From a virus: a stretch of DNA of 64,000 nt. Shown in pieces: positions 6,303 through 51,701 of the stretch. The position numbers were made by a program, and so were the translations under genes. Every line of letters starts with the position of its first letter. Position 1 is the stretch's first letter. Below the pieces are notes generated by a model. That model saw nothing but the letters and a program-made list of their open reading frames with translations, did no database searches and was not told the DNA's origin. Location of the stretch: positions 1 through 64,000 of IMG/VR virus record IMGVR_UViG_3300045988_180769. One strand, given 5' to 3'.

Positions 6303-6351
6303 CAAAAAAAAATTAAAAAGTTGGCACCTTATTTCACAACAAAATGCCAAC
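6303..6351 (-). terminator. intrinsic terminator after ORF 6367..6798
   Basis: GTTGGCA (6320-6326) pairs with TGCCAAC (6345-6351), followed on the minus strand by TTTTTAATTTTTTTTTGG. Confidence 0.7.
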
Positions 6352-6366
6352 TATCGACTAAACTGA

Positions 6367-6798
6367 TTAGGGAATGTAATGTTCTATTTTAGTTTCTTTA
6401 ACATTAACGATCCTTGAATCATAATGTATATCGTTCATTTCTTTAAACGCGATTTTACTTGCTTCTGTAGAGTTCTTTGCTCTTACAAGAAAGTTCATTT
6501 TATAATTTTTCACTTTTCCTGTATGATCATTAATTTCGCTCCATTCTCCTTGACAAATGAACCATGGTCCTAAATCTTCTTCGTATACTCCTGAAATATC
6601 AATCTCTTTAATTGGTCTAATGGAATAATCTACATCAATATTCACATTGGCCCACTTTGTTGCAATTGATTCTGCGTGAGTATAATTTTCACCATAACAT
6701 GCAATTACATGAGTAAACTTCTTTATTCTTCCATTAAATGAGTCTGGATCAATATCATAATAGCTTATAGTAATTTCGAAATTCATCTTTGACAACAA
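6367..6798 (-). CDS. hypothetical protein, translationally coupled to the dpdA-like gene
   Basis: 143-aa ORF overlapping the upstream gene by 16 nt. The two halves look internally similar (YGENYTHAESIATKW versus AKNSTEASKIAFKEM). Confidence 0.65.
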   Translation of the reverse strand: MLSKMNFEITISYYDIDPDSFNGRIKKFTHVIACYGENYTHAESIATKWANVNIDVDYSIRPIKEIDISGVYEEDLGPWFICQGEWSEINDHTGKVKNYKMNFLVRAKNSTEASKIAFKEMNDIHYDSRIVNVKETKIEHYIP

Positions 6799-7568
6799 AA
6801 TTTTAAAAAATCGACATTATGTTCGATCAAAGGAATTTGTTCCTTTGTGATCGTTTTTTCAAAATAATCATGAGGAGTTGGTATTCTTTCAAACGATTGT
6901 TGACGAACTAAATCGATATTGTGAAGTGAAGAAAGAATAGGATAACAACTATCTGTGGATCGTACTATTTCTTCAGTGTAAGGATATGATAAAAACTCTC
7001 TTGGATCGCCTTGTCCTAAAAAATGCAATGGTTTCTTTAGAAGGTTTGATTTATCAAGTATCTCCACAAGATGAATTCTTGATGATGCAATCTCGTTGTC
7101 TCTCATAATATGAGGAATTGCTTTCTTACTCATTCCTATCGTAGCAACATGTTTGCTATACAAAAAGAACTTATAACATTCCATCCAATCTTTAAAAGTC
7201 TCTCCTTGTGGACACGCGAGAATGTTTGTATCATCCAACTCTCCTTTGATTTTTGCTTCTTTCATCCATTCAAGAAATTGATTGAAATTGATCAATGTTT
7301 GATCTTTATCATAAAGCACATCAAGTGGAATAACTTCATTTGGTTTTATTTCAAGTGTCAACTTGAATAATTCTTCATTAGTTAAAACTTCTCCTTCTTC
7401 TCCAGTACCATTGTCAAGTATAGTAAAACGACCATTTTGAATAGCTTCATGAACATACTTTCGATATGTTTCGTTTTTCTTATAATATTGACCTATAATA
7501 TAAAGATTATTATCTCCCAATTCACTTAATTCTAAATGATTCATAGGAGGAGTTAAAAATATTTTCAT
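6783..7568 (-). CDS. dpdA: DpdA-like (TGT-fold) DNA 7-deazaguanine transglycosylase, putative
   Basis: The ordered motifs ILDNGTGE, IPLDVLYD, ACPQG, IGMSK, LHFLGQG and RSTDSCYP match my recollection of the TIM-barrel TGT/DpdA pattern (DSG, QG, LHxxG, FDS). folE, queE and queD are also in the window. Confidence 0.6.
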   Translation of the reverse strand: MKIFLTPPMNHLELSELGDNNLYIIGQYYKKNETYRKYVHEAIQNGRFTILDNGTGEEGEVLTNEELFKLTLEIKPNEVIPLDVLYDKDQTLINFNQFLEWMKEAKIKGELDDTNILACPQGETFKDWMECYKFFLYSKHVATIGMSKKAIPHIMRDNEIASSRIHLVEILDKSNLLKKPLHFLGQGDPREFLSYPYTEEIVRSTDSCYPILSSLHNIDLVRQQSFERIPTPHDYFEKTITKEQIPLIEHNVDFLKFCCQR

Positions 7569-8206
7569 AAATTCTTTTTTATTTGATTAATAAATTCTTT
7601 TGCATTTTCTGGAACTTTTGCATTTTTAATTCCAGAATTCTCTTTTGCCCATAGAGGCTGTAAATTTCTGTAATTGAAGCAAATGTATAGTTGAGTTTCA
7701 TCGATTAAATTAAAATAACTTCTTGGAATGATATGATCAATCTGCCATCCTTCCTTTCCTCCATAATTATCCCAATTCATTTCTTCTTGAAATTGTTGTT
7801 CAAGATGTCGCTTTAAATGCTCAATTGAACAACCAAGAACTTTTAATAAACTTTGATACCAATTACATTTGTCAGGTTTAGTAGGTGGTATATTCAAAGC
7901 CTTGTATAATCTATTCGTATATAGCATTGAAGTTCTATAATTCTCATCTTGATATCTCTTTTTACTTCTCAAAGACTCTGCACCATTTTCTTGACGTTTT
8001 TGCCTTACTTTCTTTTGAGTAGACTTTCCTTTTTGTGATTGTCTATAATTCTTTTCTACTTCTTTTCCTCTTTCAGATTGTTTATAACGCATTTTTGCAG
8101 GCATGGCACATTCTTTGCATATGTAATATAAACCATCTTTATATGTTTTACATTTAAAAAAGTCTGTTTCATCCTTGTTTTTATTACATTTTGGACAATA
8201 TTTCAT
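7565..8206 (-). CDS. free-standing HNH endonuclease with an N-terminal zinc finger
   Basis: CPKCNKNK...YICKECA, then WQIDHIIPRSYF...NYRNLQPLWAKENSGIKN (H-N-N). Paralogue of 26371..27066. Confidence 0.85.
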   Translation of the reverse strand: MKYCPKCNKNKDETDFFKCKTYKDGLYYICKECAMPAKMRYKQSERGKEVEKNYRQSQKGKSTQKKVRQKRQENGAESLRSKKRYQDENYRTSMLYTNRLYKALNIPPTKPDKCNWYQSLLKVLGCSIEHLKRHLEQQFQEEMNWDNYGGKEGWQIDHIIPRSYFNLIDETQLYICFNYRNLQPLWAKENSGIKNAKVPENAKEFINQIKKNL

Positions 8207-8208
8207 AT

Positions 8209-9132
8209 TTAATCTTCTATTGAATAAACTACCTTTGTTCTTTCACTCAAACAAGTTAAAGCATGTATCATAAGATCTTTAACTCCTATTTTATTGTCTC
8301 CTTCTTCGATCTCCTCAAAAGAAAGATTTTTATTTTTTCTTTTATCCTTCTCCATCTTCTCATATCGAGACCTTCTTACTTTCATAGGAACGCACATAAC
8401 AATGATGTCATAATCAATCATTTGATCGAATGATTTTAGAACACCTTCTAATATACTAATTTGTCTACAACCAACAATGTAAATGTGTTTACTTTCTTGA
8501 AAAGGATTGTTCACTATTTCCATTATCTTATAATAGATGTTTTGAACAATCAAATTATCCAATGATCTATCAAATACTCTCGAAGTTGATGAAGTGATTT
8601 CTTGTACAATCTTACCAACTTCAATTGTGCAATCCAATACCTCTTTATTCTTTTGTACATAAGTTGTCTTTCCAGAAAAAGCCTCTCCTATGACAAAAAT
8701 AATTTTAGGAATTGGTTTTGTTGACTTCTTTTCTGGTATAATCGTCTCTATCAATTCTTTTCGCACACTCTTAATATCTTGTTCTACAATAGCATAGTTT
8801 TCGCCATCTTCACTTACTTTTACGCTGTCAAAACCAAATTGTATCAAGATCTCTTCAGCGATCATCTCACAGGATTTAGGACCAAAAGAACATACACCAA
8901 TGGTTTTATCTGGATAAGAGCTTAAAATCCATTGCTTTACTCTTCTATTAAGAATAATGAATTCTTCATCACGATCATTATGATTCACTCTCTTTCTACA
9001 TTCAATCTTAAATAGGTGTCTATGAGGATATTCAAGAAAACCAACTTCCTCACCATGATTTTTTGATGCTGTTGGATAATTGTGAAAACCTTCAACTTCT
9101 AATTTTATTCCTACAAATGCTTTCATAATCAA
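8209..9132 (-). CDS. QueD/PTPS-like domain fused to a P-loop NTPase/kinase-like domain
   Basis: The N-terminus (GFHNYP...FLEYPHRHLFKIE) resembles PTPS/QueD-like phage proteins. The C-terminus carries Walker A (GEAFSGKTT) and a hydrophobic strand (IYIVGC). Confidence 0.55.
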   Translation of the reverse strand: MIMKAFVGIKLEVEGFHNYPTASKNHGEEVGFLEYPHRHLFKIECRKRVNHNDRDEEFIILNRRVKQWILSSYPDKTIGVCSFGPKSCEMIAEEILIQFGFDSVKVSEDGENYAIVEQDIKSVRKELIETIIPEKKSTKPIPKIIFVIGEAFSGKTTYVQKNKEVLDCTIEVGKIVQEITSSTSRVFDRSLDNLIVQNIYYKIMEIVNNPFQESKHIYIVGCRQISILEGVLKSFDQMIDYDIIVMCVPMKVRRSRYEKMEKDKRKNKNLSFEEIEEGDNKIGVKDLMIHALTCLSERTKVVYSIED

Positions 9133-9386
9133 TAAGTTATATTAAATCTTCTTTTTTCGTTCTCTTTTGTTATTCCATATGTCGCACAATATTTTTTCTT
9201 CTTTGTTTGACATAATGTTACAGGGCCTTTGTAAATACATTTACCATCAAGGAACAATCTCATGATCTTTTGACCATTTATGTTCTTGTTCCTTTTCACT
9301 CTTTCTATGACTTCTTTTGTCACTTTATCATCTACCCAACCATTTTTGTGATAGATGAAATCTTTAAGTTCCTTTTCCATCTTCAA
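9129..9386 (-). CDS. hypothetical protein
   Basis: 85-aa ORF with a 4-nt overlap with its neighbour. Confidence 0.5.
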   Translation of the reverse strand: MKMEKELKDFIYHKNGWVDDKVTKEVIERVKRNKNINGQKIMRLFLDGKCIYKGPVTLCQTKKKKYCATYGITKENEKRRFNITY

Positions 9387-9913: not shown

Positions 9914-12472
9914 TTAAATATAACAATAAATTAATTCTTCTTTTGCTCTTGTAATTGCCACAAACTTCAAACACATTTCACTGTAGTATGCATCTTGTGT
10001 AATAGCATGTGGATTTGGAATTAGGTTTGGATTCAAAAAGAACACTTTGTTCGCTTCGAGCCCTTTTGACTTATGTATTGTACTTAATACCACTCCTTCA
10101 ATATCCTCTGTATAAATTTGTTTTATATGAGTTTCAAGTGAATCAAGATTATTCCATATCTTATATAGTTGAAATAAAATAGAACACTTTTCAACGAGAT
10201 TTATGTATGTAGGATTTTGAATTGCAACTTGATAAGATATTCCTTTCTCCATAAGTTTATTCACCTTCTCTTCTTTTAGAGCTTCTAAATCCTCAATCTT
10301 TTCAATCTTATCAAGAATTGCACAAAGTGCATCACCAAAGTCTTTTCCCTTTATTGTAGCTTTTACTCCTCTTTCGAGTAATGCTATGAATGCATCAATG
10401 AGTGGAAGATTGTTTCTACACAATACAAAGTCACCATCTTTTGCTTCTATCACATCACCATTTCTCACCAAACCTTCTATCGCATTAGGTGCACATTCAA
10501 TCCCACTTGAAAACACAGTTTTAGCTTCTTCTACTATTCTTTTTGCACAACGATAAGAAACATCGAGTGGTAAGGTTATTGTGTTTGGTAGATTTTCTAA
10601 CAATCTAAAATTTGATACACTTGATCCTTGGAACGCATAGATGTTTTGCCTTGGATCGCCAACTGCAATAAATCGACCAAATCGAGGCTTTAAATATCTT
10701 AATAGAAGTTCCCTTTGAATTACATTCATATCTTGTACTTCATCAGCGACAACTACATCGTATTTTGGAAAATCTTCATCATTCACTAAAATATATGGTA
10801 ACCACAACATATCAGTGAAATCCATTTGAAACTCTTTATTTCCATTGATCTTTTTCGCTTTCTTCATCCATTCTTCGTCAATCAATCGAATATCCTCTAC
10901 CATTCTTTCTCGAAATTCGATTTCCTTACCAATGCAAATGTTCATTATATCGTTCTCATAATCAACAAGTAGATTCATTCTTACTACATTCCATATATCT
11001 TGTAATTCAAAAAGATATCTCATTTGTTGTTTATAAGGAAGTTCTTTGAGATCAAGAATCTTCTTTGCGAGTACAAAACATTTATTCTCGTTCAACTTCA
11101 TTGTAAATGAAAAGTTGTAAAAAAGCACCTTTAGACCTTTGGCATGGAAAGTGTTAACTTCCACTCTTTCAGGAAGTCTACTTCTCAATTCCTCAGCAAT
11201 ACTCTTATTGAATGCCATGAAAAGAGATCTTTTTGTTATAGGTGTTCTTCGACAACATTCAACGATTGTTGTGGTCTTTCCTGAGTTATGAGTTATTGTA
11301 AAATCTCCTAAAACAAATCTTTGGTCTTTATCTACTGAAAAACCATACCAATCATCTATTTCTAATTTTTCAATTGAAAATCCAGTATGAAGAACGTTTT
11401 TAATTTGTCTTCTTGGTAACGCTTGTTTTCTTTTTAATTTTGTAGGAATTATTGATAAATCTCCAGAAATTGATATTAAATTATATTGTCCTTCAAAATT
11501 GATAGACTTTATTCTTCTTATAACTTTTTTAGAATAAGCTGCTAAACCAACGCTTCTACATAAATATAAGATTACATCTTTCAAATGATCGTATTTTGTC
11601 GTAATTTCAAAATAACCTGAACTTAAATTTCCATGAGTATCTCTAACTGTTGAATAACCATCTCCATCTAATAATCCAGCTAAAAATGCTAAACGATTTT
11701 CAAAAGAATTTATATAATATTCTTGAGGAACAATAATATCATTTCCTCTAAAAAGTTTAGAAAGTTTGTTCCATAAGGGGTTCGAATTTTTACCAGTTTC
11801 TTTTGTAGAATAATCTATGCACCAACAATTCCCTTTTTGCTTCGTTTTTCTTACAATCAACTTATTTTCTCCTTGAATATGAAAATTTTCCAAATATTCA
11901 AGAATTTCTAAATCGTCACAATTTACTGAAAGTTGACATTTATTCACTTGCTTTGTTCCATCAGCAAACCATAATCCTACAAAATAAGGATCTAAATCTA
12001 AATCTTTATATTTAAAATCAATTTTCGCTCGTTGCAAAAACAAATAAGATACATTTCCTTTTGGTGTTAACTTTCTATTTAAAATCTTATCCATTGGATA
12101 ATCTACTAAAGCAGTCTTGTGTTTAGAACATTTACTTTTCTTCATTTGAGCGTTAATATATTCATCCCAAACAGTTAAAATATGTTTGTCATTACATATC
12201 CATTCTTCTCCTTTTGTAGGTTTAATCTTATACAATTGACTTCGACCTTTGTGTATTTGCAATACATTGCGAGGTGTCGAATCGACACCCATTACTTGAT
12301 CTCCAATTTTGATATCTTGAACTTTTTTCAAAGAACCATCGTACATAAGAATATTAGTATCTTTTCCTAAACATCCTGCTGTAGCGTCTACAACGAGATT
12401 CTTTTTAGTGCATTCATAATTATCAAAAATGGTTTCTTGTCTAAAACTCCATTTGTTTGTTCCCATAATCAT
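9914..12472 (-). CDS. UvrD/PcrA-like SF1 DNA helicase, interrupted by an intein in Walker A
   Basis: After removing the intein, the extein reads DATAG|SGKTT. Downstream motifs are VVADEVQDMN, VGDPRQNIYAFQGS, VSYRC, STIHKSKGLE and VAITRAKEEL. Confidence 0.9.
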   Translation of the reverse strand: MIMGTNKWSFRQETIFDNYECTKKNLVVDATAGCLGKDTNILMYDGSLKKVQDIKIGDQVMGVDSTPRNVLQIHKGRSQLYKIKPTKGEEWICNDKHILTVWDEYINAQMKKSKCSKHKTALVDYPMDKILNRKLTPKGNVSYLFLQRAKIDFKYKDLDLDPYFVGLWFADGTKQVNKCQLSVNCDDLEILEYLENFHIQGENKLIVRKTKQKGNCWCIDYSTKETGKNSNPLWNKLSKLFRGNDIIVPQEYYINSFENRLAFLAGLLDGDGYSTVRDTHGNLSSGYFEITTKYDHLKDVILYLCRSVGLAAYSKKVIRRIKSINFEGQYNLISISGDLSIIPTKLKRKQALPRRQIKNVLHTGFSIEKLEIDDWYGFSVDKDQRFVLGDFTITHNSGKTTTIVECCRRTPITKRSLFMAFNKSIAEELRSRLPERVEVNTFHAKGLKVLFYNFSFTMKLNENKCFVLAKKILDLKELPYKQQMRYLFELQDIWNVVRMNLLVDYENDIMNICIGKEIEFRERMVEDIRLIDEEWMKKAKKINGNKEFQMDFTDMLWLPYILVNDEDFPKYDVVVADEVQDMNVIQRELLLRYLKPRFGRFIAVGDPRQNIYAFQGSSVSNFRLLENLPNTITLPLDVSYRCAKRIVEEAKTVFSSGIECAPNAIEGLVRNGDVIEAKDGDFVLCRNNLPLIDAFIALLERGVKATIKGKDFGDALCAILDKIEKIEDLEALKEEKVNKLMEKGISYQVAIQNPTYINLVEKCSILFQLYKIWNNLDSLETHIKQIYTEDIEGVVLSTIHKSKGLEANKVFFLNPNLIPNPHAITQDAYYSEMCLKFVAITRAKEELIYCYI
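11285..12373 (-). mobile_element. class 1 intein (363 aa) with a LAGLIDADG homing endonuclease, in the helicase P-loop
   Basis: Starts CLGKDTNILMYDG (Cys1, aa 34) and ends FTITHN followed by Ser+1 (aa 396/397). LAGLIDADG motifs are YFVGLWFADGT and LAFLAGLLDGDGY. Confidence 0.9.
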
Positions 12473-12971: not shown

Positions 12972-15821
12972 CTATTTCTTGTTCCTACTTTTATCTTTGA
13001 TTTTCTTTATGAGAAGCGTATCTGTCGATTCGTCATTATTAATTATTGTGTCGATTCCTTTATTCACTGCATCAGTAATTTTTATCTTATAATCAAGAAT
13101 TTCTCTTGTCTCAACATCTATTGTTTCTTGTGACATGAGATAATATGCATTCATATTATGAACTTGACCCATCCTATCAATTCTCGCTGTCGCTTGTTCA
13201 AGTTCAGTTGGGGTTTGTGGCAATTCAATAAAAACTATATTATAACAACAATCTTGTAGACCATCTATTCCTGTAGAAAGTGTTTCCATGTTTGCAAATA
13301 AAAATTGTTTGTCTCTCTTCCAATTCTCTACTTTATTCATCTTTTCTTCAGTACTTCCACCACCAACAACCAATTCACTATATTTTGAAAATTCCTTATA
13401 CAATTCTTTCAATGGTTCTTTCATCATACCAAATACAATGAGCTTCAATTCTTCATCACTTTCTCTCCAATCTTTCAAAAATTGTATGATGAACTTTGTT
13501 TTTCCTTTTATAGAGAGTCTCTTTAAATTTGTCAATCTTACCAAATGTTCTGCGTTTTTTGCTTTTTCTGCAGCTTCAATATCAATTCCTTCAAGATACT
13601 CAATAAAGTTCTCCTCAGCCATTTTGTATTCTTTCTTATTGGTAATGGAGCAATCAATCGTTTGTTCAATAATGGGTGGAAGTTCTTTTAATACCTCTCT
13701 TCTTTCTTTTCTAAAATAACAATAATGTCTTAATATCTCATTAAGTTCCAATGTATAAGATGCTCCAGTGACATTAAGTCCAAAAGGTGTCATTTTAGCA
13801 TTACAATATCTATAAAGAAAATATTTTAAATCTGGAAATATCTTATCAAACTTACCAATGATCTTGAGAACACTAATGATTTCTTGTGGTCTATTCATTA
13901 TGACTGCTCCACTTAAAGCAACGATCTTGTTTGATTGCTTTGCAATCTTTTCTACTGCCTTAGATCTCAATGCCTTTGGATTTTTACACAAGTGAACTTC
14001 ATCTAAAATCAATGCTTCCCAATCTTTTAACAATTCTTCACCATATCTAATCTTTACATCTTTTTTGTCACCATCACTATTTTTCTCAAACAAAAAGTCA
14101 TAATTAATCACTGTCACATCAACTTCCCAATCGACATTCTTTGAACTTTTCGAATCAAGTATATGAAGTGTTCTTTTTGGATTACATCTTTTCCACTCTC
14201 TTTCCCAACTTGTTTTTACAGTAGAAGGACAAACAATAATGCATGGAAATAAATCAAGTAACTCTACAAAAGCAATTGTTTGTCTTGTATTGTGAGTTAA
14301 TATGATATCTTCTCCTGAAGCATATAAAGCGTCTTTATTAGAAACTTTGATACATTGCATTTCTTTTTCACCTACATATTCGATAGATTTTATCGCTCTA
14401 CAAGGCTCTTGTCTATTTTCTTTCAACAACTTTACTTTTCGTGATAGTCTACAAGGTAAAAATTTTTTAGGTAATTTTAATACTGTTCTATAAACATCTT
14501 TACATTCGATTATCTTTCCATCTTTATCTTTATAATGAGTTTTCATTGACCAAATTTTTCTTGATGTTCCTCCTAAACTTTTTGCAATAAATGCAACTTG
14601 TTCTGTTAGTTTTTTAGAAACACAAGCAAATTCTATTAAACCATTCTTTGAAACATATCCATCTGAGTCTATTAAACCTTGTAATATTGACAATCTTACT
14701 TCTGCTGTGTTATATAAATATTCTACTGGAATTTCTTTTTCGTGTGCACATTTATTCATCAATCCATAACTATCTAATCTCTCTCTAATCTTAGACATAT
14801 CTTTGCCACATAGATTAAAATCAATTGAACCTTTTGCATTTTCATTCCAAGTAACGTTTTCTTCAAAGTGCAATCTTTTAAATACTTCCTCTTGGTCTTG
14901 ATGTGCAATAGTTACCATGATTCGATTTCTTCTTAAACAACCATCTCCTAATAAGTAACCTATAATATAAGGATCTATAGAAGTTTCTTTTGAAGGAAAA
15001 TTCATTTCTTTAATCATCGGAAGTCTCCACCAATACACTCCATGATTGTGTCTATAATATGATTTATCTTGATCGACTCCCTTACCTCTTAATCCAGTTT
15101 GCATAATCTCTTTTAAAGAAACTGTTTTAAGTTTGCGAGATTTATATCCATTTGTTTTTCCATACCATAATGTCCACAAATGATCATCACAACATTCCAC
15201 TTGCGAATCATCTGAAAAAACAACTTTATAGCACTCCTTTTTACCTTGAGGATAAATATGTTCTACAACCTGAAGTTGACCATCACTACCAAAAATTTTA
15301 TCTCCCTCTTTCAAATCTCCAAATAAACAAGGTCCTTTTTCAGTATAAATTATCATATCTAAAGGCTGTGCTTTTCCTAATCCCATTGAACAACCATTAA
15401 TACAATTAGCGTGATTTATCATATATGTCAATCCCTCTAATTGATAATCTCTTAAATTTAATGGTAAGTTGAGACATTCAATCATTTCCTCTACCAATTC
15501 CTCATCGACAGCATTTTCAATAGGTTTTAATTCAATTTCTCTTGATTGAATAACTCGTCCTTTCTCGAAACCATTTTCTTCGAGAAATCCTTTTAGCAAC
15601 AAAGACTTTTCGAGTCCAAGTTGTAAATACCATTCTTTTGTTGCAGGATTATATTTTGCTCCAAAATCTTTCTTCATCTTTGTTGCGAGATAAGGTCTAT
15701 AATCGAAGCCAATATATATCCAATCTTTTTCTCTATAATAATATCTCATAGGTCTTTTTAAATAGATAAAGAGGGAATTTTGTTTCTCAACACAACTCCC
15801 TCTGCAATTATGACAATCCAA
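12972..15821 (-). CDS. SNF2-family helicase/ATPase, interrupted by an intein in motif I
   Basis: The extein reads DYQLEG...MGLGK|TRQTIAF. Later motifs are ILDEVHLCKN (DExH), SGAVIMNRPQE, and the C-terminal helicase motifs LSTGIDGLQ and QATARIDRMGQ. Confidence 0.9.
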   Translation of the reverse strand: MDCHNCRGSCVEKQNSLFIYLKRPMRYYYREKDWIYIGFDYRPYLATKMKKDFGAKYNPATKEWYLQLGLEKSLLLKGFLEENGFEKGRVIQSREIELKPIENAVDEELVEEMIECLNLPLNLRDYQLEGLTYMINHANCINGCSMGLGKAQPLDMIIYTEKGPCLFGDLKEGDKIFGSDGQLQVVEHIYPQGKKECYKVVFSDDSQVECCDDHLWTLWYGKTNGYKSRKLKTVSLKEIMQTGLRGKGVDQDKSYYRHNHGVYWWRLPMIKEMNFPSKETSIDPYIIGYLLGDGCLRRNRIMVTIAHQDQEEVFKRLHFEENVTWNENAKGSIDFNLCGKDMSKIRERLDSYGLMNKCAHEKEIPVEYLYNTAEVRLSILQGLIDSDGYVSKNGLIEFACVSKKLTEQVAFIAKSLGGTSRKIWSMKTHYKDKDGKIIECKDVYRTVLKLPKKFLPCRLSRKVKLLKENRQEPCRAIKSIEYVGEKEMQCIKVSNKDALYASGEDIILTHNTRQTIAFVELLDLFPCIIVCPSTVKTSWEREWKRCNPKRTLHILDSKSSKNVDWEVDVTVINYDFLFEKNSDGDKKDVKIRYGEELLKDWEALILDEVHLCKNPKALRSKAVEKIAKQSNKIVALSGAVIMNRPQEIISVLKIIGKFDKIFPDLKYFLYRYCNAKMTPFGLNVTGASYTLELNEILRHYCYFRKERREVLKELPPIIEQTIDCSITNKKEYKMAEENFIEYLEGIDIEAAEKAKNAEHLVRLTNLKRLSIKGKTKFIIQFLKDWRESDEELKLIVFGMMKEPLKELYKEFSKYSELVVGGGSTEEKMNKVENWKRDKQFLFANMETLSTGIDGLQDCCYNIVFIELPQTPTELEQATARIDRMGQVHNMNAYYLMSQETIDVETREILDYKIKITDAVNKGIDTIINNDESTDTLLIKKIKDKSRNKK
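14289..15371 (-). mobile_element. class 3-type intein (361 aa, Ala1, WCT triad) with a LAGLIDADG endonuclease
   Basis: Begins AQPLDMIIYT right after GLGK. Block B is CDDHLW (Trp two residues after His), block F is MQCIKV (Cys), and it ends LTHN followed by Thr+1. LAGLIDADG motifs are IIGYLLGDGCL and ILQGLIDSDGYV. Confidence 0.8.
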
Positions 15822-32324: not shown

Positions 32325-32906
32325 TTATTTCGAAGAAAAGATGACCTCTTTTATTTTCTCAATTCTTTCTTCCACTGTACCAGTAATAACTATATGTGGA
32401 ATTTTATAGTTGTTCAAAAATTGGACAATCTTTCTATCTATATCTTGTTGAAAGACTTCATCAGAAGATCTTACTCCATCATCCACAACTGGAAATTCAA
32501 TAGGAAGATAAACCACAAGTTCCAACTCCTTTGCTCTCTGAAGAACTCTTTTTCTTTCTTCAAATTCTTCGAGAGAAAGATTTTGATATTCCTCCAAATC
32601 TTCAGAACAATTATCAAATAAAACTGAAGTATAAGCAGCAACATCTACAATACATCTGTCACTTATAGAAGGCTGTTCAAATGTCTTATCTAACAATTTG
32701 TCATACTCTTCAAAGATCTTATGTTGAGATTTTGCATTACCATTTTCATTAATGGTAACTTCTCCTTTCTTCAACATATCTCGAACCAATTCTGGATAAA
32801 AAGCCCATCCTTTGAAGGATGGGTCTTTCTTTAATGCTTCGAGTAATGTTGTCTTACCAGTTCCTTGTGTTCCACAAAGATTGATTCTTTTGTTCAACGT
32901 TTTCAT
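32325..32906 (-). CDS. P-loop ATPase/kinase, AAA_28 (NadR-like) type
   Basis: NLCGTQGTGKTTLLEAL Walker A, a DRC.VD segment, and VVDDGVRSSD. Confidence 0.6.
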   Translation of the reverse strand: MKTLNKRINLCGTQGTGKTTLLEALKKDPSFKGWAFYPELVRDMLKKGEVTINENGNAKSQHKIFEEYDKLLDKTFEQPSISDRCIVDVAAYTSVLFDNCSEDLEEYQNLSLEEFEERKRVLQRAKELELVVYLPIEFPVVDDGVRSSDEVFQQDIDRKIVQFLNNYKIPHIVITGTVEERIEKIKEVIFSSK

Positions 32907-33472
32907 CGATTATCACCTGCTCCATGAATTACTCCTCTCTTTTTTCGAGAGGCCAATTTCTCATTGTTTTGAACAGCAACTTCTTCAATAGTCATACCCA
33001 TACTATGACAAAGACCATTCAAATACTTCCAAATGTTTTTCCAAGACTCGAGTACAATTGGTTTTCTATGTTCAGGAAAGATTGATTCTTCTCCTTCTTT
33101 CCATTCATCTCTCAACCACTTCTTTACTTGTTCAGCAATCTTTCCTACTTCGACAGGAAGTTGAAATGGATCTGGTTTCAACATTTCACTCCAATTCCAA
33201 TCTTTTTCAAGTGGAAGATCAAGTTCAACTCGAATACTTGCTAAATACCATAATTGATCGCCAATTTCTTTTGACACTTCTTCGATCTGTTTCTTTTGAG
33301 ATTGATCGTCTATCTCAATGTTGATCTTTTCATATGTTTCACCAAGTTCTCCGCTTAAACCTAATACAACATAAGGAATGGCGACTTTTTGATCATAGGC
33401 CTTTGTTGTGATGGCCTTTTCTTCATACTCTCTGTAATTCATTTCTTTATTATTTAGAACAATTGTTTGCAA
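32903..33472 (-). CDS. MazG-like nucleoside triphosphate pyrophosphohydrolase
   Basis: LGLSGELGETYEKI and EIGDQLWYLA form the EExxE/D metal-binding helix pair of all-alpha NTP-PPases. Confidence 0.7.
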   Translation of the reverse strand: MQTIVLNNKEMNYREYEEKAITTKAYDQKVAIPYVVLGLSGELGETYEKINIEIDDQSQKKQIEEVSKEIGDQLWYLASIRVELDLPLEKDWNWSEMLKPDPFQLPVEVGKIAEQVKKWLRDEWKEGEESIFPEHRKPIVLESWKNIWKYLNGLCHSMGMTIEEVAVQNNEKLASRKKRGVIHGAGDNR

Positions 33473-34211
33473 TTAATTTACAAAAATTAATGAAATCATC
33501 CTGTGTTAAAGTTGATTTCATAATATTTACGCTTTTATGAACCCATTGAACGTTTCCTTCGATATAACCCTTCGACGAATCAATTCTATCTAAAGATATT
33601 GTTGATTCTAAACGACCTCTTTTAGATCCTAAACTGTAATTCGATATACATAAATCAATGCCAGATAGAGCACATTTCATATTTTGCTGTTTAAGTAAGT
33701 TATCAAGATATTCGTTTGAAACATTCCATTCTAAATTTCTTGCCACAGCTCCTTCTTGAGCTCTTCTAATAACTGAAAGATTCAAATTTCCAATCTTTTT
33801 ACTTCCCTTATTTATTCTACAATTTTGACAACAAGAACTTCTTCCTCCTGTTAAAAATGTAATTCTGACATAATTTTCTTCTCCACAATCACACTTTACT
33901 CTATAAGATCTTTCTTTACTTTTGGTTAAAACCTTGAAATCCTCTTTATCAACTATAGTCCAATGTCCAAATTTCATTCCAGTTTCTACTACAGTCCAAT
34001 GTTTTGGTTTTTGCTTTTTTGCTGCAATAGTTGCTCCATATCTACATTTTAAGCATTGTTTTGAAGTTCCTGTTTTTAGATCGTAAAATCTTTTTGTTAT
34101 AACTTCTCCACATTCACATTGAACTTTAACTTGTCCTCCTGGAATTATTTCTATTATGGTCCATTTACCATACTTGTCTCCAATTTTAGGATATATTGTT
34201 TCTAACTTCAT
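33450..34211 (-). CDS. HNH-family (His-Me finger)-like endonuclease with duplicated Cys-rich modules, putative
   Basis: Two repeats (GKWTIIE...CECGE...CLKCR and GHWTIVD...CDCGE...CQNCR), then SLDRIDSSKGYIEGNVQWVHKSVNIMK. Confidence 0.5.
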   Translation of the reverse strand: MKLETIYPKIGDKYGKWTIIEIIPGGQVKVQCECGEVITKRFYDLKTGTSKQCLKCRYGATIAAKKQKPKHWTVVETGMKFGHWTIVDKEDFKVLTKSKERSYRVKCDCGEENYVRITFLTGGRSSCCQNCRINKGSKKIGNLNLSVIRRAQEGAVARNLEWNVSNEYLDNLLKQQNMKCALSGIDLCISNYSLGSKRGRLESTISLDRIDSSKGYIEGNVQWVHKSVNIMKSTLTQDDFINFCKLIANNCSK

Positions 34212-34840
34212 TTTTTTACATTTGAAATCATATCAAAAAATTCTTTTCTTGATCCAATTTCATTAGTTTTAAAATATCCACTACAATATGAAGTTTGCAT
34301 TGTTGAATCTTGTTCAATTCCTCTCAATTTAACGCACATATGCTCAGCTTTAATAAAAACAATTACTCCTTGATTATCTGGTAAAATTTCACAAAGATAA
34401 TCATGTATTTGTTTTGTTAAAAACTCTTGAGTTTGAGGACGTTTTGATAAAAAATCTACAATACGATTTAGTTTGGATAAACCTATAATATCACCATCTT
34501 TTTTTGGAATATAAGCTAAATGACAAATTCCAACTATACTTGCAAAATGATGAGCACATAAGCTGTGAACAGGTATATCTCCTTGAAATACAATACCATC
34601 ATATTGAGAATCATTTGGAAATACTGTGATCTTTGGAGGATTATCGTATGCTCCTGATGTAATTTCTTTTACATACATTTTTGCTACTCGAAAAGGAGTC
34701 TTCTTCATCGACTCATCATTTTCCCAATCGTATCCCAATGCTGTTAAAAACTCACCATACGCTTTTTCAGCGTCTTTTAACATCTTCTCTCTTTCTTCTT
34801 CTGACAGAATCATATTCTGTCCTGATTTAATTTTCTTCAT
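34208..34840 (-). CDS. folE: GTP cyclohydrolase I
   Basis: VHSLCAHHFASIVG, GLSKLNRIVDFLSKRPQTQEFLT and AEHMCVKLRG, the FolE type I signature motifs. Confidence 0.85.
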   Translation of the reverse strand: MKKIKSGQNMILSEEEREKMLKDAEKAYGEFLTALGYDWENDESMKKTPFRVAKMYVKEITSGAYDNPPKITVFPNDSQYDGIVFQGDIPVHSLCAHHFASIVGICHLAYIPKKDGDIIGLSKLNRIVDFLSKRPQTQEFLTKQIHDYLCEILPDNQGVIVFIKAEHMCVKLRGIEQDSTMQTSYCSGYFKTNEIGSRKEFFDMISNVKK

Positions 34841-34843
34841 AAT

Positions 34844-35695
34844 TTATCTGTATCTTTCTGTTCCCCAAATAACAATTTGCAATCTATCTGAATAGATAAA
34901 ACCATTCTTTGCACAATATTCTGCCACCATTTTCCTATTTTGATCTAATTCTTCGTTGGTCGATCCTGATGGCATTAATATAATATTTAGTGGTTGAATA
35001 AATTCATCATCTTCCCATACAATATTAGAATTTCTATATAGAGGGACTTTCATTCGATTTCTTTTATAAACATCATAATCGATAAGATCTTTAATTTGTT
35101 GATGAATTTCTTCAAAATCATTTTTGCTACCAACAACATATTTCAATCTAAAGTCCTGAGAATATGTCAATAAGTCCCATAATGCATCTATATTCCAACG
35201 ATTTTTAGAATGATTTTTCATGACTTCTGTCATCTTCATTCCAAGTTTAGCGCATTTCTCTTCTGTAGGTTCTGATGACTTTAATTTAGGAGAAATATTA
35301 ATTAAATCAATATTTCCTATTATTTTTGGACAAGGTGCTATTGTTCCATTTGTTTCAACGATTACATTTTTATCATAGGTTTTAGCAATTTCAATAATGT
35401 CTCTAACGATTTCAGGATAAAGAAATACTTCGCCACCTGTAATAGATATATCTTTTGTCAATGGATATTTTTCAATTTCATCTATTATAGACTGGTATGT
35501 ATACTTTCCTTTTTCAGGATTAAAACTTGAATACGCTGTATCACAAATACTATTATCAAAACAGCATCTAAGATTACAACCACTTAATCGAACAAACAAA
35601 GTTGGATTCCCAGTTGTGATTCCTTCACCTTCTATCGAAGTAAATACCTCAATAATTGGTCTATATTTAGAAAGATCTATATTACTTATTTTCAT
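34844..35695 (-). CDS. queE: 7-carboxy-7-deazaguanine synthase (radical SAM)
   Basis: FTSIEGEG, VRLSGCNLRCCFDNSICDT (Cys cluster) and ITGGEVFLY. Confidence 0.8.
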   Translation of the reverse strand: MKISNIDLSKYRPIIEVFTSIEGEGITTGNPTLFVRLSGCNLRCCFDNSICDTAYSSFNPEKGKYTYQSIIDEIEKYPLTKDISITGGEVFLYPEIVRDIIEIAKTYDKNVIVETNGTIAPCPKIIGNIDLINISPKLKSSEPTEEKCAKLGMKMTEVMKNHSKNRWNIDALWDLLTYSQDFRLKYVVGSKNDFEEIHQQIKDLIDYDVYKRNRMKVPLYRNSNIVWEDDEFIQPLNIILMPSGSTNEELDQNRKMVAEYCAKNGFIYSDRLQIVIWGTERYR

Positions 35696-36327
35696 ACTTG
35701 TTGATCTACTTTAGGATTTATAAACAAATCTTCATTTGGATTTTTATATGACGATTTTCCTTTCAAATACCAATTCCAGAGATCAGTTCCCCAATCTTTA
35801 GTTACTCCTGTCGAAAATTGAATAGTACCTTCTTTAGTCTCTCCATTTGTCATCACACCAAAAATATTTGGCATATCTAACAAATCTGAAACAAAACTTG
35901 TTGCACTTCCAGTTCTTGTTTCGTAATATTGTACAGAAAGAGCTGTCAATTCAGCTTCACCATTATTCGTTTGAGTGCACATAAGAATACCTTGAATTGC
36001 AGATAAAAGAAATAATGAGAGCATTTCAGCAGAAGGATTAAATGGAAGACTTATCCATCTATCACTATGCTTCATGATGAACTTAATATATTCTTCATCA
36101 TCCTGATTCCAAAACACAGTGCAGTGATCAAAAGAATCAATAAATTGCTTAATTGACCCTTTCATTAATCCAAAATCATAAATCATACCTGCATTATCTA
36201 ATTTAGAAGCAGTGAGACTTACAAGAACTTTGTAAGAATGACCATGAATAGATCTCTTACATCTTTCTGTTGAACAATTGCGCACAATGTGTGCCATTTC
36301 ACCTTCGAATTCTTTAGTAATTATCAT
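35692..36327 (-). CDS. queD: 6-carboxy-5,6,7,8-tetrahydropterin synthase
   Basis: FEGEMAHIV, CKRSIHGHSYKV and MIYDFG, the PTPS/QueD fold motifs. Confidence 0.75.
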   Translation of the reverse strand: MIITKEFEGEMAHIVRNCSTERCKRSIHGHSYKVLVSLTASKLDNAGMIYDFGLMKGSIKQFIDSFDHCTVFWNQDDEEYIKFIMKHSDRWISLPFNPSAEMLSLFLLSAIQGILMCTQTNNGEAELTALSVQYYETRTGSATSFVSDLLDMPNIFGVMTNGETKEGTIQFSTGVTKDWGTDLWNWYLKGKSSYKNPNEDLFINPKVDQQV

Positions 36328-51647: not shown

Positions 51648-51701
51648 CTTATTGTTATTTACTGCATAAAAATACTAATTAATCTTTTAATTACAAACTC
51701 C

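What the first reader, a model, noticed from the sequence alone, without database searches (positions are those of the whole stretch)
6367..9132. DpdA-like locus lies 25 kb from the precursor genes and holds two uncharacterised partner genes and an HNH invader
Seen: the gene order on the coding strand is QueD-like::P-loop fusion (8209..9132), HNH endonuclease (7565..8206), dpdA-like (6783..7568), then a 143-aa protein (6367..6798). All are joined by 4-16 nt overlaps and closed by a strong terminator (6303..6351). Inference: the tight coupling suggests the 143-aa protein and the fusion protein act with DpdA, for example in base tailoring, decarboxylation or substrate delivery. The free-standing HNH gene looks like a later insertion into this operon. 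Accessory enzymes for deazaguanine tailoring are still being discovered, so these are reasonable candidates.
Basis: inference. Interest (0 to 1): 0.65.

Follow-up and report, generated by a model that had tools for sequence, protein, structure and literature searches.

The report
Deazaguanine DNA module with dedicated kinase
This gut-phage locus is the DNA-insertion half of a known 7-deazaguanine DNA-modification pathway, and it shows that a small nucleotide-kinase-like protein, previously dismissed, is an obligate and often fused partner of the proposed decarboxylase DpdL, while the other suspected partner (DUF4494) is just a neighbouring backbone gene.

Summary
The four ORFs exist as described. 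The dpdA-like gene is a DpdA3-subfamily transglycosylase, 37.5% identical to Cellulophaga phage phiST CGPG_00065.

The 'QueD-like::P-loop' gene fuses two known parts. The first is DpdL, the QueD paralogue proposed in 2023 as the 7-carboxy-7-deazaguanine decarboxylase; it carries the signature LxxxHRHxF. The second is the phiST CGPG_00066 family, which I show has an NMP-kinase-like fold ('KIN').

KIN is a tiny family: 124 clusters among 1.84 billion representatives. Of the 23 long members, 22 are DpdL::KIN fusions. All 6 stand-alone members I sampled sit directly after dpdL, with dpdA3 downstream. KIN is therefore a dedicated third component of dDG-type modules. That contradicts the published statement that it has no homologues in other deazaguanine phages.

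The HNH gene is mobile: it occupies this site in only 2 of 27 related contigs.

The 143-aa DUF4494 protein is not a DpdA partner. About 47 related phage loci keep it without the cassette, and every other DpdL/DpdA3 lineage lacks it.

FolE, QueD and QueE lie 25 kb away and no QueC is present, so I predict dG is replaced by 2'-deoxy-7-deazaguanosine. What the kinase does is inferred: most likely it phosphorylates a deazaguanine nucleotide.

The parts
8779..9132 (-). DpdL domain (aa 1-118) of the fusion gene. It is a QueD-paralogue T-fold and the proposed 7-carboxy-7-deazaguanine decarboxylase. The start is probably ATG 9126.
   Evidence: It is 50% identical to phiST gp040 (DpdL), E 6e-37. The signature L33-E-Y-P-H-R-H-L-F41 equals LxxxHRHxF. 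It matches phrog_17812 at 2.6e-33. Foldseek matches E. coli QueD 4ntk with TMt 0.66.
8710..8778 (-). Low-confidence linker (about aa 119-141) between the two domains.
   Evidence: The AlphaFold2 model has pLDDT below 50 for residues 121-131. This stretch varies in length in alignment A4.
8209..8709 (-). KIN domain (aa 142-307). It is a P-loop NMP-kinase-like domain of the phiST CGPG_00066/gp041 family.
   Evidence: It aligns with phiST gp041 and the MA9V-3 ATPase. Foldseek matches UMP/CMP kinase 1uke (E 4e-8), adenylate kinases and the Sulfolobus AdkA-like protein 3lw7. The family profile hits 3lw7 (AMP-bound) over its full length at E 5e-8. Invariant residues are the Walker A G-K, R46, G82-x-R84-Q85, R117 and K127.
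7565..8206 (-). Free-standing HNH homing endonuclease inserted between the fusion gene and dpdA3.
   Evidence: It matches phrog_1035 and phrog_2340 endonuclease families and carries a DH...N...N motif. It is present at this site only in the contigs behind L004/L008 (75% identical) out of 27 cassette-bearing contigs. Homologues at 34-40% identity sit at other sites.
6783..7568 (-). DpdA3-subfamily 7-deazaguanine transglycosylase.
   Evidence: tblastn gives 37.5% identity, 98% coverage and E 5e-50 to phiST CGPG_00065, plus hits to Campylobacter CP220-like and Flavobacterium immuto DpdA3. It matches phrog_20335 at 4e-53. Invariant motifs are LDNG, PQG, HxLG and S-x-D-S. The profile gives a weak match to Salmonella DpdA 7ui4 at HxLG...S.DS.
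6367..6798 (-). DUF4494 protein (139 aa from ATG 6786). It is an adjacent backbone gene and not part of the modification module.
   Evidence: Pfam PF14902 scores 60.7 bits. Synteny without the cassette holds in about 47 loci. The model has pLDDT 94.9 and two beta-beta-alpha-beta repeats, with only weak resemblance to ribosomal eL20.
6319..6352 (-). Terminator-like hairpin plus T-run that closes the gene string.
   Evidence: sequence.
34208..36327 (-). Precursor genes for 7-carboxy-7-deazaguanine: QueD (35692-36327), QueE (34844-35695) and FolE (34208-34840).
   Evidence: Pfam PF01242, PF04055/PF13353 and PF01227.
32325..33472 (-). MazG-like NTP pyrophosphatase (32903-33472) and AAA_28 nucleoside/nucleotide-kinase-like gene (32325-32906), next to the precursor genes.
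   Evidence: Pfam and PHROG hits. Orthologues of the AAA_28 gene flank DpdA3 in CP220 and immuto. They also occur in Streptomyces phages that have no que genes nearby.

Best explanation
The locus is the 'conversion and insertion' half of a dDG-type 7-deazaguanine DNA hypermodification pathway, carried by a roughly 105-kb human-gut phage.

FolE, QueD and QueE, 25 kb away, make 7-carboxy-7-deazaguanine (CDG). The genome has no QueC.

The cassette dpdL::kin - dpdA3 then turns CDG into 7-deazaguanine and puts it in DNA in place of guanine. DpdL is a Zn T-fold QueD paralogue and the proposed decarboxylase. DpdA3 is the TGT-like transglycosylase that makes the deazaguanine-deoxyribose bond.

The P-loop half of the fusion is a dedicated NMP-kinase-like enzyme and an obligate third component of all DpdL+DpdA3 modules.

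My committed mechanism for it is an inference. It phosphorylates a 7-deazaguanine (deoxy)nucleoside monophosphate. Under this reading, part of the pathway runs at the nucleotide level: an NTP pyrophosphatase makes dGMP, DpdA3 exchanges the base, KIN makes the diphosphate, and the phage polymerase incorporates it.

The HNH gene is a selfish homing endonuclease that landed between the fusion gene and dpdA3. The downstream DUF4494 gene is a backbone gene of this phage group. The cassette was inserted beside it, and it has no specific role with DpdA.
For: Shown:
- Identity of DpdA3 and of DpdL, including the LxxxHRHxF signature.
- The same order MazG-DpdL-KIN-DpdA3 follows QueD-QueE-FolE in phiST, whose DNA is fully dDG, and in L158-L164.
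- No QueC in the window or in the que loci of related contigs. The sister phage L091 has QueC and a different DpdA3, but no DpdL or KIN.
- KIN has an NMP-kinase fold and motifs.
- The KIN family is 124 clusters among 1.84 billion representatives. Of the 23 long members, 22 are DpdL::KIN fusions. All 6 sampled stand-alone members lie directly after dpdL, with DpdA3 downstream wherever the contig extends.
- Fusions occur in several lineages: the window clade, L081-85, L166, L160, L161 and L163/164/188.
- The HNH gene is a presence/absence polymorphism.
- DUF4494 is independent of the cassette.

Supporting the nucleotide-level inference:
- Two unrelated NTP-pyrophosphatase folds, MazG and DCD/dUTPase-like, occupy the slot just upstream of dpdL.
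- Arg-rich acceptor-site residues are invariant, whereas the Asp that 5'-OH kinases need is not conserved.
- phiST, CP220 and immuto DNA is 100% substituted, and dADG nucleoside was reported in CP220-infected cytoplasm. Heterologous DpdL+DpdA expression without KIN failed (PMC10516641).
Against: - No biochemistry exists for DpdL, DpdA3 or KIN. The DpdL decarboxylase activity is itself only a published prediction.
- All characterised TGT/DpdA enzymes act on polynucleotides, and the authors of the 2023 study favour post-replicative insertion.
- Foldseek scores polynucleotide-kinase domains (4gp6) almost as high as NMP kinases.
- One KIN member is fused to a DNA ligase.
- L145 has DpdL and DpdA3 but no KIN within the DNA held.
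- DpdL homologues in ACP17-type phages lack KIN.
- The window covers 64 of about 105 kb, so a QueC elsewhere in the genome is not formally excluded.
- The window's KIN has Gln where most homologues have Arg or Lys in the IV(R/K) motif.
- A half-size DUF4494 sits inside the immuto deazaguanine cluster.
Confidence: 0.55

Rival explanations
1. Insertion is post-replicative, with KIN acting as an ATPase cofactor. DpdA3 exchanges G for 7-deazaguanine directly in duplex DNA, as proposed in 2023. The kinase-fold protein supplies ATP hydrolysis or complex assembly for DpdA3/DpdL, much as DpdB does for bacterial DpdA. No nucleotide is phosphorylated.
For: - DpdA3 is a TGT/DpdA homologue and shares the HxLG...S.DS motif with Salmonella DpdA.
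- From my own knowledge: bacterial DpdA needs the ATPase DpdB.
- DpdA3 tested alone was inactive in E. coli.
- Several members give weak hits to P-loop kinase-fold families that assist nucleic-acid modification, such as KTI12.
Against: - KIN keeps the full set of NMP-kinase acceptor-site arginines.
- Its closest solved relative by profile search is an AMP-bound AdkA-like protein.
- It is fused to DpdL, never to DpdA3.
- A conserved NTP pyrophosphatase slot upstream has no role in a purely post-replicative scheme.
Confidence: 0.22
2. KIN is a guanylate-type kinase for precursor supply. It recycles GMP or dGMP to GTP, to feed FolE at the very high flux that complete G replacement needs. It has no direct contact with deazaguanine intermediates.
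For: - KIN has an NMP-kinase fold.
- The pathway starts from GTP.
- Phage immuto carries a phosphoribosyltransferase in its cluster.
Against: - A general supply kinase would not be restricted to DpdL-containing clusters, nor fused to DpdL.
- The window already has a separate AAA_28 kinase next to MazG.
- The sister phage L091 makes a deazaguanine without KIN.
Confidence: 0.08
3. KIN is a polynucleotide 5'-kinase that works with DNA ligase to heal nicks arising during massive base exchange.
For: - Foldseek hits to Clostridium thermocellum Pnkp kinase rank near the top.
- One family member is fused to an ATP-dependent DNA ligase, and a ligase gene lies between KIN and dpdA3 in L196 and L201.
Against: - The Asp that acts as general base in 5'-OH kinases is K, D, E, S or Q in this family.
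- Only 1 of 23 long members is a ligase fusion, against 22 DpdL fusions.
- The TGT mechanism does not break the backbone (my own knowledge).
Confidence: 0.07
4. This is the first reader's proposal: the 143-aa DUF4494 protein is a DpdA accessory for base tailoring, decarboxylation or substrate delivery.
For: - It has a 4-nt ATGA overlap with dpdA3 and is conserved directly downstream in 27 related contigs.
- A half-length DUF4494 gene lies between FolE and MazG in Flavobacterium phage immuto.
Against: - About 47 related loci keep DUF4494 at the same backbone position without DpdA3 or DpdL. There it is followed by a C5 methylase, or preceded by other cargo.
- It is absent from phiST, MA9V-3, L145, L091, CP220, L158-164 and L196-202.
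- It is present in Porphyromonas Mu-like phages, pT24 and a crAss-like virus.
- The confident model shows no catalytic fold.
Confidence: 0.05

Closest known systems
Cellulophaga phage phiST dDG cluster (FolE, QueD, QueE, MazG, DpdL=CGPG_00067, CGPG_00066, DpdA3=CGPG_00065; Cui et al. 2023, PMC10516641)
   Same: The proteins and their order (DpdL, P-loop, DpdA3) are homologous. FolE, QueD, QueE and MazG are present, QueC is absent, and a split PolIII-alpha lies nearby.
   Different: - Here DpdL and the P-loop protein are one polypeptide.
- The cassette has moved 25 kb from the precursor genes, into a variable slot beside the helicase module.
- An HNH gene interrupts it.
- An extra AAA_28 kinase is present.
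- The host environment is the human gut.
- The 2023 paper discarded CGPG_00066 as unshared. The data here show it is the most specific marker of the module.
Bacterial Dpd system (DpdA transglycosylase + DpdB ATPase + DpdC), e.g. Salmonella DpdA, PDB 7ui4
   Same: Both have a TGT-like enzyme that inserts a 7-deazaguanine into DNA alongside an ATP-using partner. They share the HxLG...S.DS motif.
   Different: - The sequence match is only marginal (E 0.24).
- The partner here has an NMP-kinase fold, not a ParB-like one.
- The base is predicted to be unsubstituted 7-deazaguanine, and replacement is expected to be complete rather than sparse.
Pre-replicative phage hypermodification pathways: T4 (dCTPase, dCMP hydroxymethylase, dNMP kinase) and S-2L (MazZ, PurZ, DatZ)
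   Same: The logic is the same: an NTP pyrophosphatase, an enzyme that changes the base at the monophosphate level and an NMP kinase, all clustered beside the phage polymerase. This is a 'works like' resemblance only.
   Different: The enzymes are not homologous apart from the MazG and kinase folds. Nucleotide-level action of DpdA3 is untested.
QueD / 6-carboxytetrahydropterin synthase (E. coli, PDB 4ntk)
   Same: The T-fold and the Zn-binding histidines are shared.
   Different: The catalytic Cys of CxxxHGH is replaced, giving LxxxHRHxF. There is no Pfam PTPS hit. A canonical QueD is encoded separately.
Sulfolobus solfataricus SSO1041, AdkA-like/UPF0200 protein (PDB 3lw7, AMP-bound)
   Same: It is the closest solved relative of KIN by profile search. 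The alignment is full-length and includes the Walker A, SDVVR-like, GxR and lid motifs.
   Different: It is an archaeal stand-alone protein of unknown physiological substrate. The match is at E 5e-8 and identity is low.

Membership tests
DpdA3 (phage 7-deazaguanine DNA transglycosylase subfamily) | Sequence homology to phiST CGPG_00065, CP220 and immuto DpdA3 | tested here: met
   37.5% identity, 98% coverage and E 5e-50 to phiST. Campylobacter and Flavobacterium members were also hit. phrog_20335 matches at 4e-53.
DpdA3 (phage 7-deazaguanine DNA transglycosylase subfamily) | TGT-superfamily relationship and conserved catalytic acidic residues | tested here: inconclusive
   Invariant LDNG and S-x-D-S motifs hold across 10 diverse members. 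An HMMER profile against PDB gives only E 0.24 to Salmonella DpdA, though at the expected motif. There is no Pfam TGT hit.
DpdA3 (phage 7-deazaguanine DNA transglycosylase subfamily) | Complete replacement of dG in virion DNA | not testable with these tools
   This needs nucleoside LC-MS of phage DNA.
DpdL (QueD paralogue, proposed CDG decarboxylase) | Signature LxxxHRHxF in place of the QueD signature CxxxHGH | tested here: met
   Residues 33-41 read LEYPHRHLF. H37, R38, H39 and F41 are nearly invariant across 38 sequences. The definition comes from PMC10516641.
DpdL (QueD paralogue, proposed CDG decarboxylase) | QueD-like T-fold | tested here: met
   The AF2 model has pLDDT 83.7, with most 10-residue blocks of the N-terminal domain near or above 90 (range about 75-94). 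Foldseek matches 4ntk with TMt 0.64-0.66.
DpdL (QueD paralogue, proposed CDG decarboxylase) | Genome encodes FolE, QueD, QueE and a DpdA, but no QueC | tested here: met
   Caveat: only 64 of about 105 kb is in the window.
DpdL (QueD paralogue, proposed CDG decarboxylase) | CDG decarboxylase activity | not testable with these tools
   This has never been shown experimentally, even for phiST.
P-loop NMP kinase superfamily (AAA_18 / AdkA-like) | Walker A GxxxxGK[ST] and the core kinase fold | tested here: met
   The Walker A reads GEAFSGKT. Foldseek matches 1uke at E 4e-8 (TMt 0.66), plus adenylate kinases, 3lw7 and thymidylate kinase. AAA_18 is hit by 10 of 13 family members, though the window's own copy is below threshold.
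P-loop NMP kinase superfamily (AAA_18 / AdkA-like) | Acceptor-phosphate arginines (NMP-binding and lid) | tested here: met
   R46, R84 (in GxRQ) and R117 are invariant in 13 divergent members. The IV(R/K) position is Gln in the window.
P-loop NMP kinase superfamily (AAA_18 / AdkA-like) | Phosphotransfer to a nucleoside monophosphate | not testable with these tools
   This needs an enzyme assay.
DUF4494 (PF14902) | Pfam model above the gathering score | tested here: met
   60.7 bits against a cut-off of 27, covering profile positions 2-133 of 139.
HNH homing endonuclease | HNH catalytic motif, plus sporadic presence at a conserved intergenic site | tested here: met
   The sequence DHIIP...N...LQPLWAKEN is present. 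PHROG endonuclease families match, but there is no Pfam HNH hit. The gene is present in 2 of 27 related contigs at this site and elsewhere in others.

The most novel reading that the evidence does not exclude
DpdA3-type systems replace guanine before replication, not after. A MazG or dUTPase-like enzyme converts dGTP to dGMP. DpdA3 swaps guanine for 7-deazaguanine on the mononucleotide. The dedicated KIN kinase, fused to the base-supplying DpdL, makes the diphosphate. The phage PolIII-alpha then incorporates 7-deaza-dGTP. This would make DpdA3 the first TGT-family enzyme acting on a free nucleotide. It would overturn the published conclusion that all phage deazaguanine DNA modifications are post-replicative.
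Probability: 0.33. Interest if true: 0.85.

Novelty: new variant of a known kind. Interest (0 to 1): 0.55.

Why it matters
How phages make fully 7-deazaguanine-substituted DNA is unsolved. DpdL and DpdA3 have never been reconstituted, and the authors of the 2023 study suspected a missing enzyme. The fusion found here, together with the exclusive co-occurrence of KIN with dpdL, points to a specific candidate for that missing enzyme. It gives a directly testable three-gene minimal set: dpdL::kin plus dpdA3, on a CDG-producing background. It also gives a concrete reason to re-examine whether insertion happens before or after replication.

It further predicts that a widespread group of roughly 105-kb human-gut phages carries dDG-substituted DNA. 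That matters for restriction evasion and for sequencing or PCR bias in virome studies. It also matters for annotation: GenBank relatives are currently labelled 'antibiotic resistance protein'.

Tried and rejected
- Nucleotide search of the locus against 50,697 phage records found no match.
- A single-sequence word-index search with DUF4494 found one near-identical protein only. An alignment query was needed.
- I tried to learn whether cassette-less DUF4494 phages also lack que genes, by scanning IMG/VR with QueE and PolIII-alpha. These scans reached only the cassette-bearing clade, so that point stays open.
- The 10-member DpdA3 alignment was too divergent for pattern search.
- DUF4494 against PDB gave only an Isthmin match by sequence (E 0.14) and weak eL20 matches by fold. 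I draw no function from these.
- I considered the AAA_28 kinase beside MazG as a DpdA3-specific partner, because orthologues flank DpdA3 in CP220, immuto and L091. I rejected that as a specific link, because 89 Streptomyces phage records carry the gene, and the one I inspected (Jay2Jay) has it in a replication region without que genes. KIN and AAA_28 share only the P-loop region by hhalign.
- I checked whether the 253-aa gene inside the precursor cluster was a second DpdA. It is another HNH endonuclease.
- Rfam found no riboswitch or other RNA family in the window.
- No supplementary files of the 2023 paper were held. I therefore could not check whether gut MAG homologues were already listed there.


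Full report
**1. Observation**

Reading the junctions gives three corrections.
- The fusion gene and the HNH gene are separated by 2 nt. HNH and dpdA3 share an ATGA overlap.
- The 143-aa ORF more probably starts at ATG 6786, which gives 139 aa and another ATGA overlap. That matches the near-identical database protein P0121.
- The fusion gene probably starts at ATG 9126, giving 305 aa as in P0001.

A hairpin plus T-run follows at 6352-6319. The precursor genes about 25 kb away are QueD, QueE and FolE. They are followed by a second HNH gene, a MazG-like pyrophosphatase, an AAA_28 kinase-like gene and a split PolIII-alpha. No QueC is detectable in the window.

**2. What the genes are**

*dpdA-like gene.* It has no Pfam hit. 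It is 37.5% identical over 98% of its length (E 5e-50) to the phiST protein that Cui et al. 2023 named DpdA3. It also hits the DpdA3 of Campylobacter CP220-like and Flavobacterium immuto phages. Ten diverse members share invariant LDNG, PQG, HxLG and S-x-D-S motifs. A profile of them touches Salmonella DpdA (7ui4) at the HxLG...S.DS motif, but only at E 0.24.

*N-terminal third of the 307-aa protein.* It is 50% identical to phiST gp040 = DpdL. It carries the published DpdL signature LxxxHRHxF, here LEYPHRHLF.

*C-terminal half of the 307-aa protein.* It aligns with phiST gp041 = CGPG_00066 and with the equivalent MA9V-3 gene.

*Structure of the fusion.* The AlphaFold2 model (pLDDT 83.7, with a disordered linker at 121-131) resolves two domains. 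One matches E. coli QueD. The other matches UMP/CMP kinase, adenylate kinases, thymidylate kinase and the kinase domain of a bacterial polynucleotide kinase. A profile of 13 divergent kinase domains finds the AMP-bound Sulfolobus AdkA-like protein 3lw7 over its full length (E 5e-8). It keeps the Walker A G-K, three arginines (R46, R84 in GxRQ, R117), K127 and G144 invariant. The position corresponding to the general-base Asp of 5'-OH kinases is variable. I call this domain KIN.

**3. The fusion is real and informative**

About 60 protein clusters of 293-313 aa share the whole architecture.

I searched the KIN domain alone against 1.84 billion representative proteins. Only 124 clusters came back. 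Of these, 23 are 250 aa or longer. Twenty-two of the 23 have an N-terminal DpdL domain, and the remaining one is fused to an ATP-dependent DNA ligase.

I then sampled six stand-alone members across the whole E-value range. In every case a dpdL gene lies immediately upstream. Wherever the contig continues, dpdA3 follows within two genes.

In IMG/VR loci recovered with DpdA3 itself, the picture is as follows.
- DpdL and KIN are adjacent genes in phiST-like contigs (L158, L159) and in L162.
- They are a single ORF in L160, L161, L163/164/188, L166 and the window clade.
- Only L145 has DpdL and DpdA3 with no KIN in the DNA held; a DUF3310 gene sits there instead.

DpdL homologues in other phage types, such as ACP17 and PA5oct-like phages, match only the N-terminal domain. 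The one region I inspected, ACP17, has no kinase annotated nearby.

KIN is therefore a dedicated component of DpdL+DpdA3 modules. The 2023 paper set CGPG_00066 aside because no other deazaguanine phage then known encoded it. [quoted passage not shown]

**4. Architecture and history**

The common order is QueD-QueE-FolE-[NTP pyrophosphatase]-DpdL-KIN-DpdA3-...-PolIII-alpha. In the window's clade the DpdL::KIN-DpdA3 part sits instead between a small conserved gene (9129-9386) and DUF4494, beside the UvrD-helicase module. FolE, QueD, QueE, MazG and AAA_28 stay next to PolIII-alpha.

That slot is variable. Related phages carry a GH108-like (lysozyme-like) gene there, judged from its sequence only and not scanned against a family library. 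In others DUF4494 is followed by a C5 DNA methylase. A sister phage (L091) has QueC and a divergent DpdA3 inside the precursor cluster, and no DpdL or KIN. The cassette therefore behaves as a unit that decides which deazaguanine ends up in DNA.

The pyrophosphatase slot upstream of dpdL is filled in two ways.
- A MazG-like protein fills it in phiST, L158, L159 and L145.
- An unrelated DCD/dUTPase-like protein fills it in MA9V-3, L196, L198, L200 and L201.

**5. HNH**

The 213-aa protein matches phage endonuclease VII/HNH families. At this position it occurs only in the two contigs behind L004/L008, out of 27 cassette-bearing contigs. Homologues at 34-40% identity sit at other intergenic sites in relatives. 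The genome also carries a second HNH gene inside the precursor cluster and inteins in two helicases. This supports a later selfish insertion.

**6. DUF4494**

The 143-aa protein is PF14902. Among the loci recovered with a DUF4494 alignment and tabulated (L017-L090), 27 have the cassette directly upstream. About 47 have helicase, a 112-aa gene, a roughly 165-aa gene and then DUF4494, with no DpdA3 or DpdL within 8 kb.

HMM scans find no DUF4494 near DpdA3 in phiST, MA9V-3, L091, L145, CP220, L158-164 or L196-202. Structural and sequence relatives occur in Tenacibaculum phage pT24, a crAss-like virus and Porphyromonas Mu-like phages next to Gam.

One counter-observation remains: a 65-aa half-DUF4494 gene lies between FolE and MazG in phage immuto.

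The model is very confident (pLDDT 94.9) and shows two beta-beta-alpha-beta repeats. It gives no significant PDB match; the best is ribosomal eL20 at E 7e-3 and TM 0.33. I conclude it is a backbone gene of Bacteroidota-type phages, possibly nucleic-acid binding, and not a DpdA partner.

I could not establish whether the cassette-less phages lack que genes altogether.

**7. Mechanism**

*Shown.* Gene identities, the exclusive KIN-DpdL-DpdA3 association, the absence of QueC, and the NMP-kinase fold.

*From the literature.* phiST DNA is fully dDG. DpdL is the proposed decarboxylase. DpdA3 systems give complete replacement (PMC10516641).

*Inferred.* This phage replaces dG by dDG, and KIN supplies an ATP-dependent step between CDG and dDG-DNA.

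I favour phosphorylation of a deazaguanine nucleoside monophosphate, for four reasons.
- The acceptor-site arginines are invariant.
- A non-orthologously displaced NTP pyrophosphatase accompanies the module.
- Complete replacement is typical of pool-level pathways.
- Free dADG nucleoside was reported for CP220.

The rival readings are an ATPase cofactor role (like DpdB), guanylate recycling, and polynucleotide kinase plus ligase nick repair. They are listed with their evidence. None is excluded, and I put the nucleotide-level reading at about one third.

**8. Novelty**

DpdA3, DpdL and the pathway are known (2023). Four findings are new.
- The recurrent DpdL::KIN fusion.
- The demonstration that the CGPG_00066 family is specific to these modules.
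- The relocation of the cassette.
- The prediction of dDG DNA in a common human-gut phage group, whose GenBank relatives are annotated 'hypothetical' or 'antibiotic resistance protein'.

Noticed in passing
window 9914-12472 (-) and 12972-15821 (-): Both helicases carry inteins. The UvrD-like helicase has a Hint plus LAGLIDADG insert, judged by eye to sit in its Walker A motif (AG|C...HN|SGKT). Relatives lack residues 43-391. The SNF2 helicase has a LAGLIDADG insert that splits its SNF2 domain.
   Followed up: partly
window 33450-34211 (-): A second HNH endonuclease lies between FolE and MazG in the precursor cluster. It is present in some relatives (L100, L105, L124, L150) and absent in most. 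In MA9V-3 a similar HNH is annotated as one ORF together with DpdL.
   Followed up: partly
L091 8037-10240 (IMGVR_UViG_3300045988_181155): This sister 105.7-kb phage has QueD-QueE-FolE-MazG, then a divergent 299-aa DpdA3-like gene, then AAA_28 and QueC. It has no DpdL or KIN. It looks like a natural swap between a QueC-type and a DpdL-type deazaguanine pathway on one backbone.
   Followed up: partly
window 32325-32906 (-): This AAA_28 (NadR-kinase-like, 'thymidylate kinase') gene sits next to MazG. Clear orthologues lie beside DpdA3 in Campylobacter phage CP220 (gp057), Flavobacterium phage immuto (_68) and L091. The family is also in 89 Streptomyces phage records; in the one inspected (Jay2Jay) no que genes lie nearby. 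In CP220 an HD-phosphohydrolase::AAA_33 kinase fusion lies on the other side of DpdA3.
   Followed up: partly
P0353 (526 aa, from the representative library): This member of the KIN family is fused to an ATP-dependent DNA ligase. In L196 and L201 a ligase gene sits between KIN and dpdA3.
   Followed up: partly
L156 2963-3160 (Flavobacterium phage immuto_2-6A) and Porphyromonas phages BK068089-94: Half-length (about 65 aa) DUF4494 genes exist. One lies inside the immuto deazaguanine cluster. Others lie next to a Mu Gam-like gene in 33-35 kb Porphyromonas phages. The full-length protein looks like an internal duplication of this unit.
   Followed up: partly
L043 6948-8001; L153 10436-11362: The slot between the 85-aa gene (window 9129-9386) and DUF4494 is a variable cargo site. 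It holds a 159-aa ORF plus a GH108-like (lysozyme-like) gene in L043 (judged from sequence only). In L153/L154 a C5 DNA methylase lies directly after DUF4494.
   Followed up: no
window 8600-8620 (-), fusion residue about 177: The window's kinase domain has Gln in the 'VGxIV(R/K)' motif, where every aligned homologue has Arg or Lys. All invariant residues are otherwise intact.
   Followed up: no
window 46209-63002 (-): There are two giant ORFs of 1812 and 3766 aa. They carry CarboxypepD_reg/PEGA repeats and a Baseplate_J domain, so they are probably tail or baseplate fibre proteins. Every ORF of 150 aa or more that is not nested inside a longer minus-strand ORF lies on the minus strand, with steady negative GC skew. 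No tRNA or other Rfam family reached threshold in 64 kb.
   Followed up: no
L145 2901-3137: This is the only DpdL+DpdA3 locus without KIN. It has a 78-aa DUF3310 gene exactly between dpdL and dpdA3, and a GIY-YIG homing endonuclease upstream of dpdL.
   Followed up: no
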